From assembly GCF_003334255.1 (NCBI RefSeq), contig NZ_QOWU01000019.1: 64,000 bases of DNA; one strand, given 5' to 3'. Source of the DNA: Escherichia coli. GTDB lineage: Bacteria > Pseudomonadota > Gammaproteobacteria > Enterobacterales > Enterobacteriaceae. The stretch's first letter is position 1, and each line of letters begins with the position of its first letter. Below, piece by piece: positions 45,988 to 51,640 of the stretch. The position numbers and the translations under genes were made by a program. The notes under the pieces were generated by a model. It worked only from the letters and a program-made list of their open reading frames with translations. It did not search any database and was not told where the DNA came from.

Positions 45988-47931
45988 TTACTTACTCAAA
46001 TCCACCTGATAAATCGCAAACCCGATATCATCGGTCGCGACTTTATTCATCGGATATTGCCCTTTCTCTTTAATAAACGCCGCGGCTTTATCTGATGGAG
46101 AGGTTTCGAAACGGATATCCAGTTTCTTATCGCCAGCTATCGGTGCTAAACGCCAGTTGTTATCTGCCGCCGGGTGAATTTCCCCCGCACGTTTCGACTC
46201 ATCAGCAATCCACGCTGCCAGCACCGAGCGGTTCTCATCCGGTGAAGCAAAAGCGATATGGCTGTCGCCCGTACCGGCAAATTTGCCGCCGTAAGCGCGA
46301 TAGTTATTGGTGGCAACCAGGAACATGGCGTTCGGATCAATCGGCTTGCCATTAAAGGTCAGGTTCTTAATCCTTTCCGCATTGGCATTAACCATCTGGC
46401 ACTCGCCGTCATAACGGGCAGGCTGGGTAACATCAATCTGATAATTCACACCATCAATCACATCAAAGTTATAGGTGCGGAAACCATCCCAGTTGATGAG
46501 TGACTGTGGTTTCGTGTTGTCAGGATCAATCTGGTTAAACTGTCCGGCGGAGCACTCCAGCCACTCTTTCACCTCTTTACCGCTGGCTTTCACCACAATC
46601 AGCGTATTGGGGTAGAGATAAAGATCGGCGGCATTACGGAAGGTCAACTGGCCTTTTTCCACCTCCACATAGCTTGCCGGATCATTTTTGCGACCACCAA
46701 CTTTAAACGGTGCAGCAGCTGAAAGCACCGGCAGTTTTGCCAGATCCGGATCGCCCTGAATGTAATGCTCGACATACGCTTTTTGCGCGTTGTTCACCAC
46801 CTGCACGGTCGGATCGTCCTGCACCAGCGCCAGATAGCTATACATATTGTCGGCGGATTTACCGATTGGCTTGCTGACGAACTGGCGTGTGGCATCGTGA
46901 TCGGCTTTGAGTGTTTCTACCAGCTTGCTGTCTTCCGCCGCGAGGGATTTTTTATTGGCGATGTCGTAAATCGGCCGTGCTTCCGCTTTCGCCTGCGTCA
47001 CCTGCCATTTACCGCTGTTATTACTGAGTTGTAAGTCGACCACCCCAAGATGATCGCCCCACATGCCCGGCATTACCGCCGGAACACCATTCAGCGTGCC
47101 TTTCGCGATATCAGCCCCTTCGATATCAGCAAAATCTTTACCTGGGAAAACGGCGTGAGCATGGCCAAACATAATGGCGTTAACGCCAGGAATTTCACTG
47201 AGGTAATAAACTGAGTTTTCCGCCATCACTTTATACGGATCGGCAGATAGCCCGGAATGCGCCAGAACGACAACGACATCGGCACCTTTCTCGCGCATTT
47301 CAGGCACGTATTTGCGCACGGTTTCGGTAATATCATTCACCGTCACTTTTCCGGATAAATTAGCTTTATCCCAGCCCATGATTTGCGGCGGCACGACGCC
47401 AATATAGCCAATCTTCAGCGTCTGTTTTTTTCCGTCTTTATCGACCACTTCGGTATCTTTAATTAAATACGGTGTAAACATTGGCTGTTTGGTTCTGGCG
47501 TCAATGACGTTGGCATTTACATAAGGGAATTTCGCTCCCGCCAACGCATTTTTCAGGTAATCCAGACCGTAGTTAAATTCATGATTGCCGAGTGTACCGA
47601 CCGTATAATCCAGCGTATTCAGCGCCTTATAAACCGGATGAACATCACCTGCTTTTAATCCTTTCGCCGATATGTAATCGGCCAGCGGACTCCCCTGAAT
47701 CAAATCGCCGTTATCGACCAGTACGCTGTTTTTCACTTCATTGCGGGCATCGTTAATCAGGCTTGCCGTACGTACCAGTCCGAATTTTTCCGTGGCGGTG
47801 TCTTTGTAATAATCGAAATCCATCATGTTGCTATGCAGATCAGTGGTTTCCATGATACGTAGATCGACCGTCGCTGCATTCACACTGGCGGCAATCAGCG
47901 TGGCCAGGAGCGTTGCGCTAAACTTAATCAT
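45988..47931 (-). CDS. cpdB: 2',3'-cyclic-nucleotide 2'-phosphodiesterase / 3'-nucleotidase CpdB
   Basis: Start set at [33 protein letters not shown] (signal peptide); metallophosphatase and 5'-nucleotidase C-terminal regions. Confidence 0.9.
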
Positions 47932-48120
47932 CAGGGACATCCTTTTATCATCGGGAATACGAAAGAAAAGGGAGAATAAACGCCTTACTTATAGAACAGT
48001 GAAGAATGCCACAATTTTACGCTTTGAAAATGATGACACTATCACAGTTGGCGCATTCATTAACGATAGGGTATAAGTAAAACAATAAGTTAACACCGCT
48101 CACAGAGACGAGGTGGAGAA

Positions 48121-48861
48121 ATGTTAGATCAAGTATGCCAGCTTGCACGGAATGCAGGCGATGCCATTATGCAGGTCTACGACGGGACGAAACCGATGGA
48201 CGTCGTCAGCAAAGCGGACAATTCTCCGGTAACGGCAGCGGATATTGCCGCTCACACCGTTATCATGGACGGTTTACGTACGCTGACACCGGATATTCCG
48301 GTCCTTTCTGAAGAAGATCCTCCCGGTTGGGAAGTCCGTCAGCACTGGCAGCGTTACTGGCTGGTAGACCCGCTGGATGGTACTAAAGAGTTTATTAAAC
48401 GTAATGGCGAATTCACCGTTAACATTGCGCTCATTGACCATGGCAAACCGATTTTAGGTGTGGTGTATGCGCCGGTAATGAACATAATGTACAGCGCGGC
48501 AGAAGGCAAGGCCTGGAAAGAAGAGTGCGGTGTGCGCAAGCAGATTCAGGTCCGCGATGCGCGCCCGCCGCTGGTGGTTATCAGCCGTTCCCATGCAGAT
48601 GCGGAGCTGAAAGAGTATCTGCAACAGCTTGGCGAACATCAGACCACGTCCATCGGCTCTTCGCTGAAATTCTGCCTGGTGGCGGAAGGGCAGGCGCAGC
48701 TGTACCCGCGCTTCGGACCAACGAATATTTGGGATACCGCCGCTGGTCATGCTGTGGCTGCAGCTGCCGGAGCGCACGTTCATGACTGGCAGGGTAAACC
48801 GCTGGATTACACTCCGCGCGAGTCGTTCCTGAATCCGGGATTCAGAGTGTCTATTTATTAA
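48121..48861 (+). CDS. cysQ: 3'(2'),5'-bisphosphate nucleotidase CysQ
   Basis: 246 aa inositol-monophosphatase-fold protein (…[31 protein letters not shown]…). Confidence 0.9.
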
Positions 48862-49408
48862 TTAATTTATGCAGCAGGTCCATCACTTGCTGCACCTCTT
48901 CCTGTGTGAGCGCCCCGTCTTTGGCCCATTGCACGCGACCATCCTTATCCAGCACCACTACAGCGGAACTTTCTTCATCCAGCTGCCAGGCACCGCGCGC
49001 GACGCCATTGCTATCGACAATAAACTGCGACCAGGGATAAAGCTTTTTATTACTCTCCAGACTGCTGCGCACAAACATCCCTGAACCCGGAATCGCGTCG
49101 TCGGTGTTAACAATGGTGGTGGTCTGGTAGCGATCGTGCGGTAACTTCGCTGATTTAATCGCTTCAATCAGCGTCGCGTTTTTCTCTTTTGCAGAGGTGC
49201 GACCAGCAATATGTTGCAGTACTCGCACTTTTCCCACTAACTGTGCGCTGTTCCAGGTTTTGTAGCTAAACTGATCTTTATCAAGCACCAACTCGCCTCG
49301 ATCGGTAATGCCAATCGGCGGCACTCGCTGACCGGTTTCGAACTGATGTGCGGAAGCCATCATCGGCAACAGCAGGCAGGTGAGTGCCAGAATCTTGCGT
49401 AGGGTCAT
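48851..49408 (-). CDS. ytfJ: Periplasmic protein YtfJ
   Basis: 185 aa with signal peptide; convergent with cysQ, 3' ends overlapping by ~11 nt. Confidence 0.8.
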
Positions 49409-49732: not shown

Positions 49733-49939
49733 ATGAAAATTTTCCAACGGTACAACCCACTTCAGGTGGCGAAGTACGTAAAGATCCTGTTCCGTGGACG
49801 GTTATACATCAAGGACGTTGGCGCTTTTGAATTTGATAAGGGTAAGATTCTTATCCCAAAAGTGAAGGATAAGCTGCATTTGTCAGTGATGTCCGAAGTT
49901 AACCGTCAGGTTATGCGTCTGCAAACAGAGATGGCTTAA
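49733..49939 (+). CDS. ytfK: Small protein YtfK (DUF1107)
   Basis: 68 aa from [38 protein letters not shown]…. Confidence 0.85.
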
Positions 49940-50000: not shown

Positions 50001-51344
50001 TTACGCGACGCTTTCTTCTTTATCTTTAGCGTCAGGCAGTTTTGGCGAAAGGGCGGTGGCCTTGCTGTCGATCCGGGTCACCAGCAGCTGGTCGATGCGG
50101 TAGTTATCGATATCCACCACTTCAAATTTGTAGCCGGCGAATTTCACCGAATCGGTGCGTTTCGGGATCTTACGCAGCATAAACATCATAAAGCCGCCGA
50201 TGGTTTCGTAGTTGCCCGACTGCGGGAACTCGTCAATATCCAGCACGCGCATGACGTCGTCAATTGGGGTGCCGCCGTCAATCAGCCATGAGTTCTCATC
50301 ACGGGCGACAATCTGCTCTTCCAGCCCCTGACCGACTAGATCGCCCATCAGCGTGGTCATCACGTCATTGAGGGTGATGATCCCCACCACCAGCGCGTAC
50401 TCGTTCATGATCACCGCGAAGTCTTCACCTGCGGTTTTAAAACTTTCCAACGCCTCTGAAAGGGTTAACGTATCCGGCACAATCAGCGTGTTGCGAATTT
50501 GTACGCCGCTGTTCAGTGCCAGGCTTTGGTTAGCCAGCACGCGGTTCAGCAGGTCTTTAGAATCGACATAGCCGATGATGTGGTCAATATCTTCATTACA
50601 GACGAGGAACTTAGAGTGCGGATGTTCCGCCACCTTATTCTTCAGGCTTTGCTCATCTTCGTGGAGATCAAACCAAATCACGTTTTCACGCGGTGTCATT
50701 GACGACGGAACGGTACGGGATTCCAGCTCAAAGACGTTTTCAATCAGCTCGTGTTCCTGTTTACGTAACACGCCCGCCAGCGCACCGGCTTCCACTACCG
50801 CGTAGATGTCATCAGAAGTGATGTCATCTTTACGTACCATTGGCAGTTTGAAAATACGGAAGATTATGTTCGCCAGTCCGTTGAAGAACCACACCAGCGG
50901 GGTGCAAACGTACAGGCAGAAGCGCATCGGGTTGATGATACGCAAAGCGACAGCTTCTGGCGCAATCATACCGATGCGTTTCGGGGTTAAATCCGCAAAC
51001 AGGATAAACATGCCAGTCACTAACGAGAAAGAGAGAATAAAGCTCAGTTGCTCAGAGAGCTCTGCCGACATATAGCGGGAGAACAGGCTGTGAAAAGCTG
51101 GAGAAAATGCCGCATCACCGACGATACCGCCGAGAATCGCCACTGCGTTCAGACCGATTTGGACCACGGTAAAGAACATGCCGGGATTTTCCTGCATATT
51201 CAGAACGCGTTGGGCATTTATATTGCCTTCATCAGCCAGCAGTTTAAGTTTGATTTTGCGTGAGGCGGCAAGTGAGATCTCGGACATCGAGAAGAACGCA
51301 CTTACAGCGATCAAGCAGAGTATGACTAAAATACTGTTTAACAT
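50001..51344 (-). CDS. ytfL: Inner membrane protein YtfL (CNNM/CorC-HlyC family, DUF21-CBS-CorC_HlyC)
   Basis: 447 aa; N-terminal TM region, CBS pair and CorC/HlyC C-terminal region. Confidence 0.85.
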   Translation of the reverse strand: MLNSILVILCLIAVSAFFSMSEISLAASRKIKLKLLADEGNINAQRVLNMQENPGMFFTVVQIGLNAVAILGGIVGDAAFSPAFHSLFSRYMSAELSEQLSFILSFSLVTGMFILFADLTPKRIGMIAPEAVALRIINPMRFCLYVCTPLVWFFNGLANIIFRIFKLPMVRKDDITSDDIYAVVEAGALAGVLRKQEHELIENVFELESRTVPSSMTPRENVIWFDLHEDEQSLKNKVAEHPHSKFLVCNEDIDHIIGYVDSKDLLNRVLANQSLALNSGVQIRNTLIVPDTLTLSEALESFKTAGEDFAVIMNEYALVVGIITLNDVMTTLMGDLVGQGLEEQIVARDENSWLIDGGTPIDDVMRVLDIDEFPQSGNYETIGGFMMFMLRKIPKRTDSVKFAGYKFEVVDIDNYRIDQLLVTRIDSKATALSPKLPDAKDKEESVA

Positions 51345-51509
51345 ATCTTATCCGACCTTTCAGGCCAGATCCTCGGAAGGGGAAGTTGATTAATTTGTGT
51401 GAAATACACATTGAAAGCCGATTCGAAGAAAGTGAACCGGCATTTTCAGTGGCTAGTATAGCGTAAGGTACTGTAAAGTCGCCAGAGGGTTAAAATTCAG
51501 ACTGCTGAT

Positions 51510-51640
51510 AAATGCAATACTGCCTGATGCGCTATGCCAATCAGGCCTACGCAGTCCTTGCAATATATTGAATTTGGACGATTTTGTAGGCCTGGTAAGG
51601 CGTTTACGCCGCATCTGGCATAAATAAAGCGCACTTTATC
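51510..51640. repeat. REP/BIME-type extragenic palindromic repeats
   Basis: gcctgatgcg…caggcctac and taggcctggtaaggcgtttacgccgcatctggca units between msrA and ytfL; boundaries approximate. Confidence 0.5.

What the first reader, a model, noticed from the sequence alone, without database searches (positions are those of the whole stretch)
48851..49408. Backbone differs from the K-12 reference: ytfI absent, cysQ and ytfJ converge with overlapping 3' ends
From memory, the reference has ytfI between cysQ and ytfJ. Here cysQ and ytfJ are convergent and overlap by ~11 nt, so the interval is minimal. This is a small indel-type strain difference.
Basis: partly seen in the sequence, partly recalled or inferred. 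Interest (0 to 1): 0.15.

Follow-up and report, generated by a model that had tools for sequence, protein, structure and literature searches.

The report
Ancestral cysQ–ytfJ junction without ytfI
This E. coli strain lacks the small orphan gene ytfI that K-12 carries between cysQ and ytfJ, but this gene-free, tail-to-tail overlapping arrangement is the ancestral and most common one, so the finding is an ordinary, already documented strain difference.

Summary
cysQ (+, 48121-48861) and ytfJ (-, 48851-49408) converge and share exactly 11 nt (CTATTTATTAA). K-12 MG1655 has 1,212 bp, including ytfI, between the two stop codons, a net difference of 1,220 bp.

The direction of change runs the other way from what the K-12 comparison suggests. 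Among 5,426 complete E. coli genomes, 3,795 (70%) carry the window's junction and 1,623 (30%) carry the ytfI cassette.

In 79 other Enterobacterales species, cysQ and ytfJ overlap by 11, 7 or 4 nt in 53. These include Citrobacter, Klebsiella, Enterobacter and other Escherichia species. Erwiniaceae have a 27-138 nt spacer with a hairpin.

The window is therefore an intact "empty site". K-12 carries a derived, AT-rich (35% GC) insertion encoding an Escherichia-restricted orphan protein with no Pfam or NCBIfam match. A true ytfI deletion (strain ETEC1738) leaves an IS1 element, 164 nt of cassette and a truncated ytfJ.

The polymorphism is published: Higashi et al. 2016 (PMC4720273, S10 Fig) describe ytfI as a K-12 insertion bound by H-NS and absent from SE11 and SE15.

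The interest is low. Two minor additions came out of this work. The cassette appears as old as the split from a cryptic Escherichia lineage, and convergent junctions in this neighbourhood repeatedly accept unrelated cassettes.

The parts
48121..48861 (+). cysQ, encoding 3'(2'),5'-bisphosphate nucleotidase (246 aa plus the TAA stop)
   Evidence: ORF listed. NCBIfam NF008182 scores 525 bits against a cutoff of 379. The protein is 99% identical to K-12 CysQ. RefSeq annotates it on identical DNA.
48851..49408 (-). ytfJ, encoding a YtfJ family protein (185 aa plus the TAG stop), with C-terminus ...HKLINK
   Evidence: ORF listed. TIGR01626 scores 306.8 bits against a cutoff of 151.1. The protein is 98% identical to K-12 YtfJ over residues 1-183.
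48851..48861 (.). 11-nt segment coding on both strands, CTATTTATTAA. On the + strand it covers the end of cysQ (…S-I-Y-stop). On the - strand it covers the ytfJ stop, Lys, Asn and part of Ile. This is the empty site where K-12 carries the ytfI cassette.
   Evidence: Read directly from the sequence. The same overlap, CTATTTAYTRA, occurs in 24 other species. An 84-nt probe across the junction matches 3,795 of 5,426 complete E. coli genomes.
48862..48869 (-). Last ytfJ codons, which differ from K-12. In the strict alignment, homology to K-12 resumes at 48870.
   Evidence: Pairwise alignment and reading.
48829..48845 (+). Short hairpin (CTGAATC-CGG-GATTCAG) inside the cysQ 3' coding region, followed by the AT-rich overlap. 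It is terminator-like by pattern only, and its function is not shown.
   Evidence: Pattern scan and fold. It is not conserved in position in Citrobacter or Enterobacter.
48870..48894 (.). Palindrome TGCAGCA-N11-TGCTGCA inside the ytfJ 3' coding region. It forms a hairpin on either strand and has no U-tract. It is present in K-12 as well.
   Evidence: Fold (z-scores -1.2 and -2.0, unremarkable) and repeat I18.

Best explanation
The window shows the original, uninterrupted tail-to-tail junction of cysQ and ytfJ that is typical of Enterobacteriaceae. The two convergent genes end inside each other, so 11 nt code on both strands and there is no intergenic DNA.

K-12 and about 30% of E. coli differ because a self-contained, AT-rich 1.2-kb cassette was inserted exactly at this junction in an early Escherichia lineage. 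The cassette consists of a cysQ-proximal hairpin, about 210 bp of AT-rich upstream DNA, the orphan gene ytfI, and a hairpin-plus-T-run terminator. The insertion rebuilt a slightly different ytfJ C-terminus.

Both alleles now segregate in E. coli, presumably exchanged by homologous recombination through the conserved flanks. The window strain carries the empty-site allele.

Consequences for the window strain:
- There is no ytfI product. This step is shown.
- H-NS has no AT-rich site from which to spread over cpdB-cysQ-ytfJ-ytfK. This is taken from the literature on strains SE11 and SE15, not tested on this strain.
- cysQ and ytfJ transcripts must terminate inside each other's coding sequence, because no intergenic terminator exists. 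This is inferred and not tested.
For: Anatomy.

Frequency in E. coli: 5,421 of 5,426 genomes have the region. 1,623 have the cassette. 3,795 have the window junction. The two classes sum to 5,418.

Direction of change: in 79 species loci, cysQ and ytfJ overlap by 11 nt in 24, by 7 nt in 27 and by 4 nt in 2. Erwiniaceae have 27-138 nt spacers with GC-rich hairpins, and only 5 loci have insertions larger than 1.2 kb. The window junction is collinear, with no indel, with E. whittamii, Escherichia sp. E1V33, Citrobacter and Klebsiella.

Foreign character of the cassette: its GC content is 0.29-0.39 against 0.50-0.60 in the flanks. YtfI has no Pfam or NCBIfam family. Its only homologues, among 5.8 billion and 1.84 billion proteins, are from Escherichia/Shigella or are fragments of itself.

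A real loss looks different: ETEC1738 retains 164 nt of cassette plus IS1 and a truncated ytfJ.

Literature: PMC4720273, S10 Fig, describes ytfI as an inserted K-12 segment bound by H-NS and absent from SE11 and SE15.

The cassette brings its own hairpins, with z-scores of -5.8 and -3.6.
Against: No mobility signature was found for the cassette: no terminal inverted repeats, no integrase and no clear target-site duplication. The insertion mechanism is therefore unknown.

The right flank of K-12 (CCATTATTTGA) resembles a second, degenerate copy of the 11-nt overlap (about 8 of 11 positions). This is too weak to call a duplication.

ytfI in a cryptic Escherichia lineage (L003) has diverged as much as its flanks (dS 0.70 against 0.59-0.66). 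The insertion is therefore old, and whether this strain's own ancestors ever carried it and regained the empty allele by recombination cannot be decided.

Termination inside the opposing genes is an inference. The only terminator-like pattern, at 48829-48845, lies upstream of the cysQ stop codon.
Confidence: 0.9

Rival explanations
1. The window lineage once carried ytfI and lost it. Loss would have been either by precise excision or, more plausibly, by homologous replacement with an empty-site allele imported from another strain.
For: The cassette is old. An intact ytfI with 69% amino-acid identity sits at the same site in a divergent Escherichia lineage, with dS equal to that of the flanks. 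ytfI-positive and ytfI-negative strains are mixed across E. coli lineages (K-12, O157:H7 and O55:H7 against Nissle 1917, APEC O78 and O103), which implies allele exchange.
Against: Precise excision that restores an 11-nt dual-coding overlap identical in register to Citrobacter and Klebsiella is very unlikely. The one observed deletion left a scar, and no cassette remnant exists in the window. Allelic replacement cannot be distinguished from 'never had it' using this locus alone. In either case the allele itself is the ancestral one.
Confidence: 0.12
2. The 3' overlap is a functional regulatory device, not just compaction. Convergent transcription through the shared end would couple cysQ and ytfJ expression through antisense or transcriptional interference, in the manner of an excludon. 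This is compatible with the best explanation for the origin of the junction.
For: The overlap is retained in 53 of 79 species across many genera. There is no intergenic terminator. Hairpins flank the AT-rich overlap on both strands.
Against: Conservation of the 11 nt is already explained by dual-coding constraint. The overlap length varies (11, 7 or 4 nt) and Erwiniaceae do without it. About 30% of E. coli tolerate separation of the genes by 1.2 kb. The hairpin z-scores are unremarkable (-1.2, -2.0), the hairpins lie in coding sequence, and the cysQ-side hairpin is not positionally conserved. There are no expression data.
Confidence: 0.12
3. Assembly or annotation artefact: a collapsed or misassembled junction, or a miscalled ytfJ stop.
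For: None found.
Against: An identical junction occurs in 3,795 complete genomes from many laboratories. Independent PGAP annotation gives the same coordinates. YtfJ aligns end to end with TIGR01626.
Confidence: 0.01

Closest known systems
E. coli K-12 MG1655 cysQ-ytfI-ytfJ locus (b4214-b4216)
   Same: The flanking genes cpdB, cysQ, ytfJ, ytfK and paeA are in the same order and orientation, at 98-99% nucleotide identity.
   Different: K-12 has 1,212 bp between the stops, containing ytfI and two strong hairpins. Its ytfJ is one codon shorter, with a different C-terminus (…QKLLK against …HKLINK). In the window the genes overlap by 11 nt.
ytfI-less arrangement in E. coli SE11 and SE15 (Higashi et al. 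2016, PLoS Genet, PMC4720273, S10 Fig)
   Same: The same presence/absence polymorphism. The paper shows ytfI as a K-12-specific inserted segment absent from SE11 and SE15.
   Different: The paper uses the locus to illustrate H-NS spreading. It does not describe the 11-nt overlap, its conservation across genera, or the population frequency. H-NS occupancy was not measured in this strain.
cysQ/ytfJ junction of other Enterobacteriaceae (Citrobacter, Klebsiella, Enterobacter, E. whittamii)
   Same: Convergent genes with overlapping 3' ends. The 11-nt overlap CTATTTAYTRA is in the same register in Citrobacter, Klebsiella and Escherichia species.
   Different: Enterobacter, Lelliottia and Leclercia overlap by 7 nt and Trabulsiella by 4 nt. 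Erwiniaceae have a 27-138 nt spacer with a GC-rich hairpin. A few species carry unrelated cassettes at the site.
Convergent bacterial gene pairs with overlapping 3' ends or bidirectional terminators (general phenomenon; cited from my own knowledge, not checked here)
   Same: A tail-to-tail gene pair whose transcripts must overlap at their 3' ends.
   Different: No bidirectional intrinsic terminator is present here, because there is no intergenic DNA at all. Whether the transcripts overlap has not been measured.

Membership tests
CysQ, 3'(2'),5'-bisphosphate nucleotidase (NCBIfam NF008182 / TIGR01331) | Full-length match above the curated cutoff of the equivalog models | tested here: met
   NF008182 scores 525.3 bits (cutoff 379) over residues 1-246 of 246. 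TIGR01331 scores 376.6 bits (cutoff 228.8).
YtfJ family (TIGR01626, ytfJ_HI0045) | Full-length match above the curated cutoff | tested here: met
   306.8 bits (cutoff 151.1), covering residues 1-183 of the 184-position profile.
Empty-site (ytfI-less) allele of the E. coli cysQ|ytfJ junction | Continuous cysQ-ytfJ junction sequence with no intervening DNA, shared with other ytfI-less E. coli | tested here: met
   The 84-nt junction probe (48822-48905) is covered at 80% or more in 3,795 genomes, many at 100% identity. A 1,701-nt query is 100% identical in several strains.
Empty-site (ytfI-less) allele of the E. coli cysQ|ytfJ junction | Collinear with outgroup species (ancestral state, not a deletion scar) | tested here: met
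   The same 11-nt overlap in the same register occurs in 24 other species loci, with no indel. Compare the deletion scar in ETEC1738.
ytfI-bearing allele (K-12 type) | Presence of ytfI or of cassette DNA between cysQ and ytfJ, or elsewhere in the window | tested here: not met
   tblastn with YtfI gives a best E-value of 3.2. blastn with the cassette finds only 14-24 nt chance matches.
Mobile-element insertion (IS or transposon type) as the origin of the K-12 cassette | Terminal inverted repeats, a target-site duplication, or a transposase/integrase gene | tested here: not met
   No terminal inverted repeats or clear direct repeats at the cassette ends. The single ORF has no family match. There is only a weak resemblance, about 8 of 11 positions, between the two junction copies of the overlap (reading).
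Antisense/excludon-type regulation by overlapping convergent transcripts | Experimentally mapped overlapping 3' ends and reciprocal expression effects | not testable with these tools
   Only sequence is available. There is no intergenic terminator and the hairpin statistics are unremarkable.

The most novel reading that the evidence does not exclude
The ytfI presence/absence polymorphism may be older than E. coli itself. The cassette has diverged as much as its flanks between K-12 and a cryptic Escherichia lineage (dS 0.70 against 0.59-0.66). It remains an intact ORF with dN/dS of about 0.27, while the ancestral empty site persists in 70% of E. coli. This could reflect long-term maintenance of both alleles by selection on an orphan gene or on its H-NS-mediated silencing of cpdB, cysQ, ytfJ and ytfK. 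On that reading, the empty-site strains, including this one, would differ in how these four genes are regulated.
Probability: 0.15. Interest if true: 0.3.

Novelty: already known. Interest (0 to 1): 0.08.

Why it matters
It matters little. The result serves mainly as a caution against treating K-12 as the default. At this locus K-12 is the minority, derived state, and the window shows the conserved Enterobacteriaceae arrangement.

Practical consequences:
- Annotation pipelines should expect an 11-nt cysQ/ytfJ overlap in most E. coli.
- K-12 data on H-NS binding or expression of cpdB, cysQ, ytfJ and ytfK may not transfer to ytfI-less strains (PMC4720273).

The locus is also a neat small example of two things. 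Accessory genes accumulate at convergent, promoter-free junctions. And an orphan gene can persist for a long time under relaxed purifying selection.

Tried and rejected
Function of YtfI:
- No Pfam match, even at E<=10, and no NCBIfam match.
- PADLOC gave only a 41-residue Cas6b fragment hit (E 8e-4) and PHROGs a weak hit of unknown function (E 1.7e-3). Both were judged to be chance.
- No PDB relative was found (best E 0.79).
- An exhaustive HMMER search of 1.84 billion representatives found only YtfI itself and its fragments.
- The AlphaFold2 model was poor (mean pLDDT 54.5, pTM 0.41), so no fold search was run.

Mobility signatures of the cassette: no terminal inverted or direct repeats. I considered a target-site duplication of the 11-nt overlap, but the two copies agree at only about 8 of 11 AT-rich positions, so I did not claim it.

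Terminators at the window junction: there is only a pattern-level hairpin upstream of the cysQ stop. The folds are not significant. No Rfam family lies at the junction.

A site-specific insertion hotspot: rejected as a special mechanism. The other convergent junction nearby (ytfK|paeA) accepts insertions at a similar rate (6 of 64 against 5 of 79), while the divergent junctions accept none.

Literature on cysQ/ytfJ transcript overlap: nothing relevant was found. Other papers mentioning ytfI give only an ASKA overexpression hit for HOCl resistance and a strain marker.

Full report
**1. The observation**

The window carries cpdB (-, 45988-47940), cysQ (+, 48121-48861), ytfJ (-, 48851-49408), ytfK (+, 49734-49939) and paeA/ytfL (-, 50001-51344). 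cysQ ends ...TCT ATT TAT TAA, with its stop at 48859-48861. Read on the minus strand, ytfJ ends ...CAT AAA TTA ATT AAT AAA TAG, with its stop at 48851-48853.

RefSeq annotation of identical DNA in strains 300709 and YSP8-1 gives the same overlap. CysQ and YtfJ pass their curated NCBIfam cutoffs over their full length.

**2. Comparison with K-12**

In MG1655 the order is cysQ (b4214), ytfI (b4215, 312 aa, + strand), ytfJ (b4216). There are 1,212 bp between the cysQ stop and the ytfJ stop.

A global alignment gives 844 of 858 identities on the left flank and 826 of 831 on the right. All of the extra K-12 DNA sits at the junction. The net length difference is 1,220 bp, which matches the 2,921-bp against 1,701-bp spans seen in database hits.

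The boundary touches the end of ytfJ. K-12 YtfJ ends ...QKLLK (184 aa), and the window's ends ...HKLINK (185 aa). Neither ytfI nor any cassette DNA occurs elsewhere in the window.

**3. Which state is derived**

Three lines of evidence show that the window has the ancestral state.

(a) Population frequency. Of 5,426 complete E. coli genomes, 5,421 contain the region. 1,623 (30%) contain the ytfI cassette. 3,795 (70%) contain the window's uninterrupted junction, tested with an 84-nt probe across it. The two classes sum to 5,418, so this is essentially a two-allele polymorphism.
- ytfI-positive genomes include K-12 derivatives, O157:H7 and O55:H7.
- ytfI-negative genomes include Nissle 1917, APEC O78 and O103.

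(b) Outgroups. A scan of one genome per species with CysQ returned 80 loci. I located cysQ, ytfJ, ytfK and cpdB in each locus and extended the frames to their stop codons. In the 79 loci that have both genes:

| cysQ/ytfJ relationship | Loci | Taxa |
|---|---|---|
| Overlap of 11 nt | 24 | Citrobacter spp., Klebsiella oxytoca group, E. whittamii, Escherichia sp. E1V33, MOD1-EC7003, E69 |
| Overlap of 7 nt | 27 | Enterobacter, Lelliottia, Leclercia, Pluralibacter and others |
| Overlap of 4 nt | 2 | Trabulsiella |
| Spacer of 27-138 nt, mostly with a GC-rich hairpin | 21 | Erwinia, Pantoea, Mixta |
| Insertion larger than 1.2 kb | 5 | see section 6 |

The 11-nt overlap reads CTATTTAYTRA in the same register in all −11 species, so the window junction has no indel relative to them.

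(c) What a real loss looks like. Strain ETEC1738 keeps the first 164 nt of the cassette, followed by an IS1 element and a 3'-truncated ytfJ. Nothing like this is present in the window.

**4. The K-12 cassette**

It is AT-rich, with GC of 0.29-0.39 against 0.50-0.60 in the flanks. It looks like a self-contained module:
- a strong hairpin immediately after the cysQ stop (-21.4 kcal/mol, z = -5.8);
- about 210 bp of AT-rich upstream DNA;
- ytfI;
- a hairpin followed by a T-run (z = -3.6).

YtfI has no Pfam, NCBIfam or PDB relative. It has only marginal PADLOC and PHROG fragment hits. Searches of 5.8 billion clustered proteins and of 1.84 billion representatives found only Escherichia/Shigella YtfI or its fragments. 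An AlphaFold2 model was of low confidence (pLDDT 54.5) and was not used. No terminal repeats or transposase were found, so the insertion mechanism is unknown.

The K-12 right junction (CCATTATTTGA) weakly resembles a second copy of the 11-nt overlap. A short target duplication would neatly explain how both genes kept functional ends. At about 8 of 11 AT-rich positions, this remains conjecture.

**5. Age of the polymorphism**

A divergent Escherichia genome (L003, labelled E. coli SCPM-O-B-8794) carries an intact ytfI at the same site, with the same cysQ-proximal hairpin. It has 69% amino-acid identity to K-12 YtfI.

| Gene (K-12 against L003) | dS | dN/dS |
|---|---|---|
| ytfI | 0.70 | 0.27 |
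| cysQ | 0.66 | 0.014 |
| ytfJ | 0.59 | 0.028 |

This lineage is as distant from E. coli as other cryptic Escherichia species, which have the empty site.

The insertion therefore appears to predate E. coli diversification. ytfI behaves as a real but weakly constrained coding gene. Both alleles have coexisted for a long time, presumably moving by homologous recombination of the flanks. This rests on single-gene pairwise estimates and is an inference.

**6. Other cassettes at the site**

Four other species carry unrelated DNA at the same junction:
- E. albertii: a 385-aa pentapeptide-repeat protein.
- Citrobacter youngae ATCC 29220: a radical SAM/SPASM enzyme plus a TIGR04222 membrane protein, flanked by a 42-nt duplication of the ytfJ 3' end.
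- Intestinirhabdus alba: a sodium:solute symporter.
- An Erwinia MAG: a methyl-accepting chemotaxis protein.

This does not indicate a special hotspot mechanism. Insertions larger than 600 bp occur at a similar rate at the neighbouring convergent junction ytfK|paeA (6 of 64 against 5 of 79). They never occur at the two divergent, promoter-bearing junctions (0 of 74 and 0 of 64). That fits the general tolerance of promoter-free 3' junctions to insertion.

**7. How the junction works**

Shown: there is no intergenic DNA and no canonical intrinsic terminator between the genes. The only terminator-like pattern (48829-48845) lies upstream of the cysQ stop. The palindrome at 48870-48894 lies inside ytfJ and has no U-tract. 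The fold statistics are ordinary. Rfam has nothing at the junction.

Inferred: each transcript must end inside the other gene, so the 3' ends probably overlap. Whether that has regulatory meaning is untested. Conservation of the 11 nt is sufficiently explained by dual coding. The variable positions are the synonymous third base of the cysQ Tyr codon and the TAA/TGA stop, which change only the penultimate residues of YtfJ.

From the literature: the ytfI segment nucleates H-NS binding that spreads to cpdB, cysQ, ytfJ and ytfK in K-12, and this binding is absent in the ytfI-less strains SE11 and SE15 (PMC4720273, S10 Fig). By extension the window strain should lack it.

**8. Comparison with what is known, and verdict**

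The polymorphism is already documented (PMC4720273), and both alleles are routinely annotated in RefSeq. The only correction is that K-12 is the derived minority and the window is the ancestral majority.

- Novelty: already known.
- Interest: low (0.08).
- Most novel reading not excluded: a long-lived, possibly selected presence/absence polymorphism of an orphan gene, with H-NS-mediated effects on its neighbours (probability about 0.15).

Noticed in passing
window 58400-64000: A P2-like myovirus tail module begins right after ytfP. It includes an Ogr-like zinc-finger regulator (58922-59224, -), a gpD-like tail protein (59266-60411, -), a tail sheath (60553-61758, +), a tube-like protein (61758-62270, +) and a gpE-like protein (62322-62702, +) (PHROGs). 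Strain YSP8-1, otherwise 99.25% identical over 32797-58393, has ppa here instead. This is a prophage or its remnant that runs off the end of the window.
   Followed up: partly
window 29632-39500: A metabolic island not found in K-12 lies between rplI and ytfB. It contains a TRAP transporter DctP/Q/M (29682-32550, -), a 693-aa FAD flavoprotein (32547-34628, -) and then CoA-transferase, enoyl-CoA hydratase, sugar-phosphate isomerase, ketoacyl reductase and TetR genes, named by analogy with YSP8-1. YSP8-1 has an MFS transporter plus IS1 where the window has the TRAP genes.
   Followed up: partly
window 47932-48054 (+); also 13476-13549, 28049-28133, 51406-51463, 51543-51585: Rfam matches above the gathering score: ES239 sRNA in the cpdB-cysQ spacer (probably the cysQ 5' leader), Esr41, the RpsF leader, STnc450 and ES036.
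   Followed up: no
L016 6741-6782 and 8872-8913 (Citrobacter youngae ATCC 29220): A 2.1-kb cassette (radical SAM/SPASM enzyme plus a TIGR04222 membrane protein with a C-terminal Gly/Ser/Cys-rich repeat) sits at the cysQ|ytfJ junction. It is flanked by a 42-nt direct duplication (95% identity) of the ytfJ 3' end. This suggests insertion by a Campbell-type or duplicative event that preserved both genes.
   Followed up: partly
L007 6852-8009 (Escherichia albertii NBRC 107761): A 385-aa AT-rich ORF with a pentapeptide-repeat segment occupies the same junction in E. albertii. It has weak similarity to Qnr/HetL-type repeats and to the N-terminal region of a type III secretion effector model, all far below cutoff.
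   Followed up: partly
L084 2501-3800 (E. coli ETEC1738): A third allele. An IS1 element sits next to 164 nt of residual ytfI cassette, with ytfI and the 3' third of ytfJ deleted.
   Followed up: yes
L003 6940-7866 (Escherichia lineage labelled E. coli SCPM-O-B-8794): An intact, highly divergent ytfI (69% amino-acid identity) lies at the same site. Its dS equals that of the flanks and its dN/dS is about 0.27, against about 0.02 for cysQ and ytfJ. It is an orphan gene evolving roughly ten times faster at the protein level than its neighbours.
   Followed up: partly
loci L048, L062, L065, L066, L067, L070 (ytfK|paeA junction): The next convergent junction downstream (ytfK|paeA) also carries 1.2-4.4 kb insertions in several Enterobacter, Klebsiella and Pluralibacter species. 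Their content was not examined.
   Followed up: no
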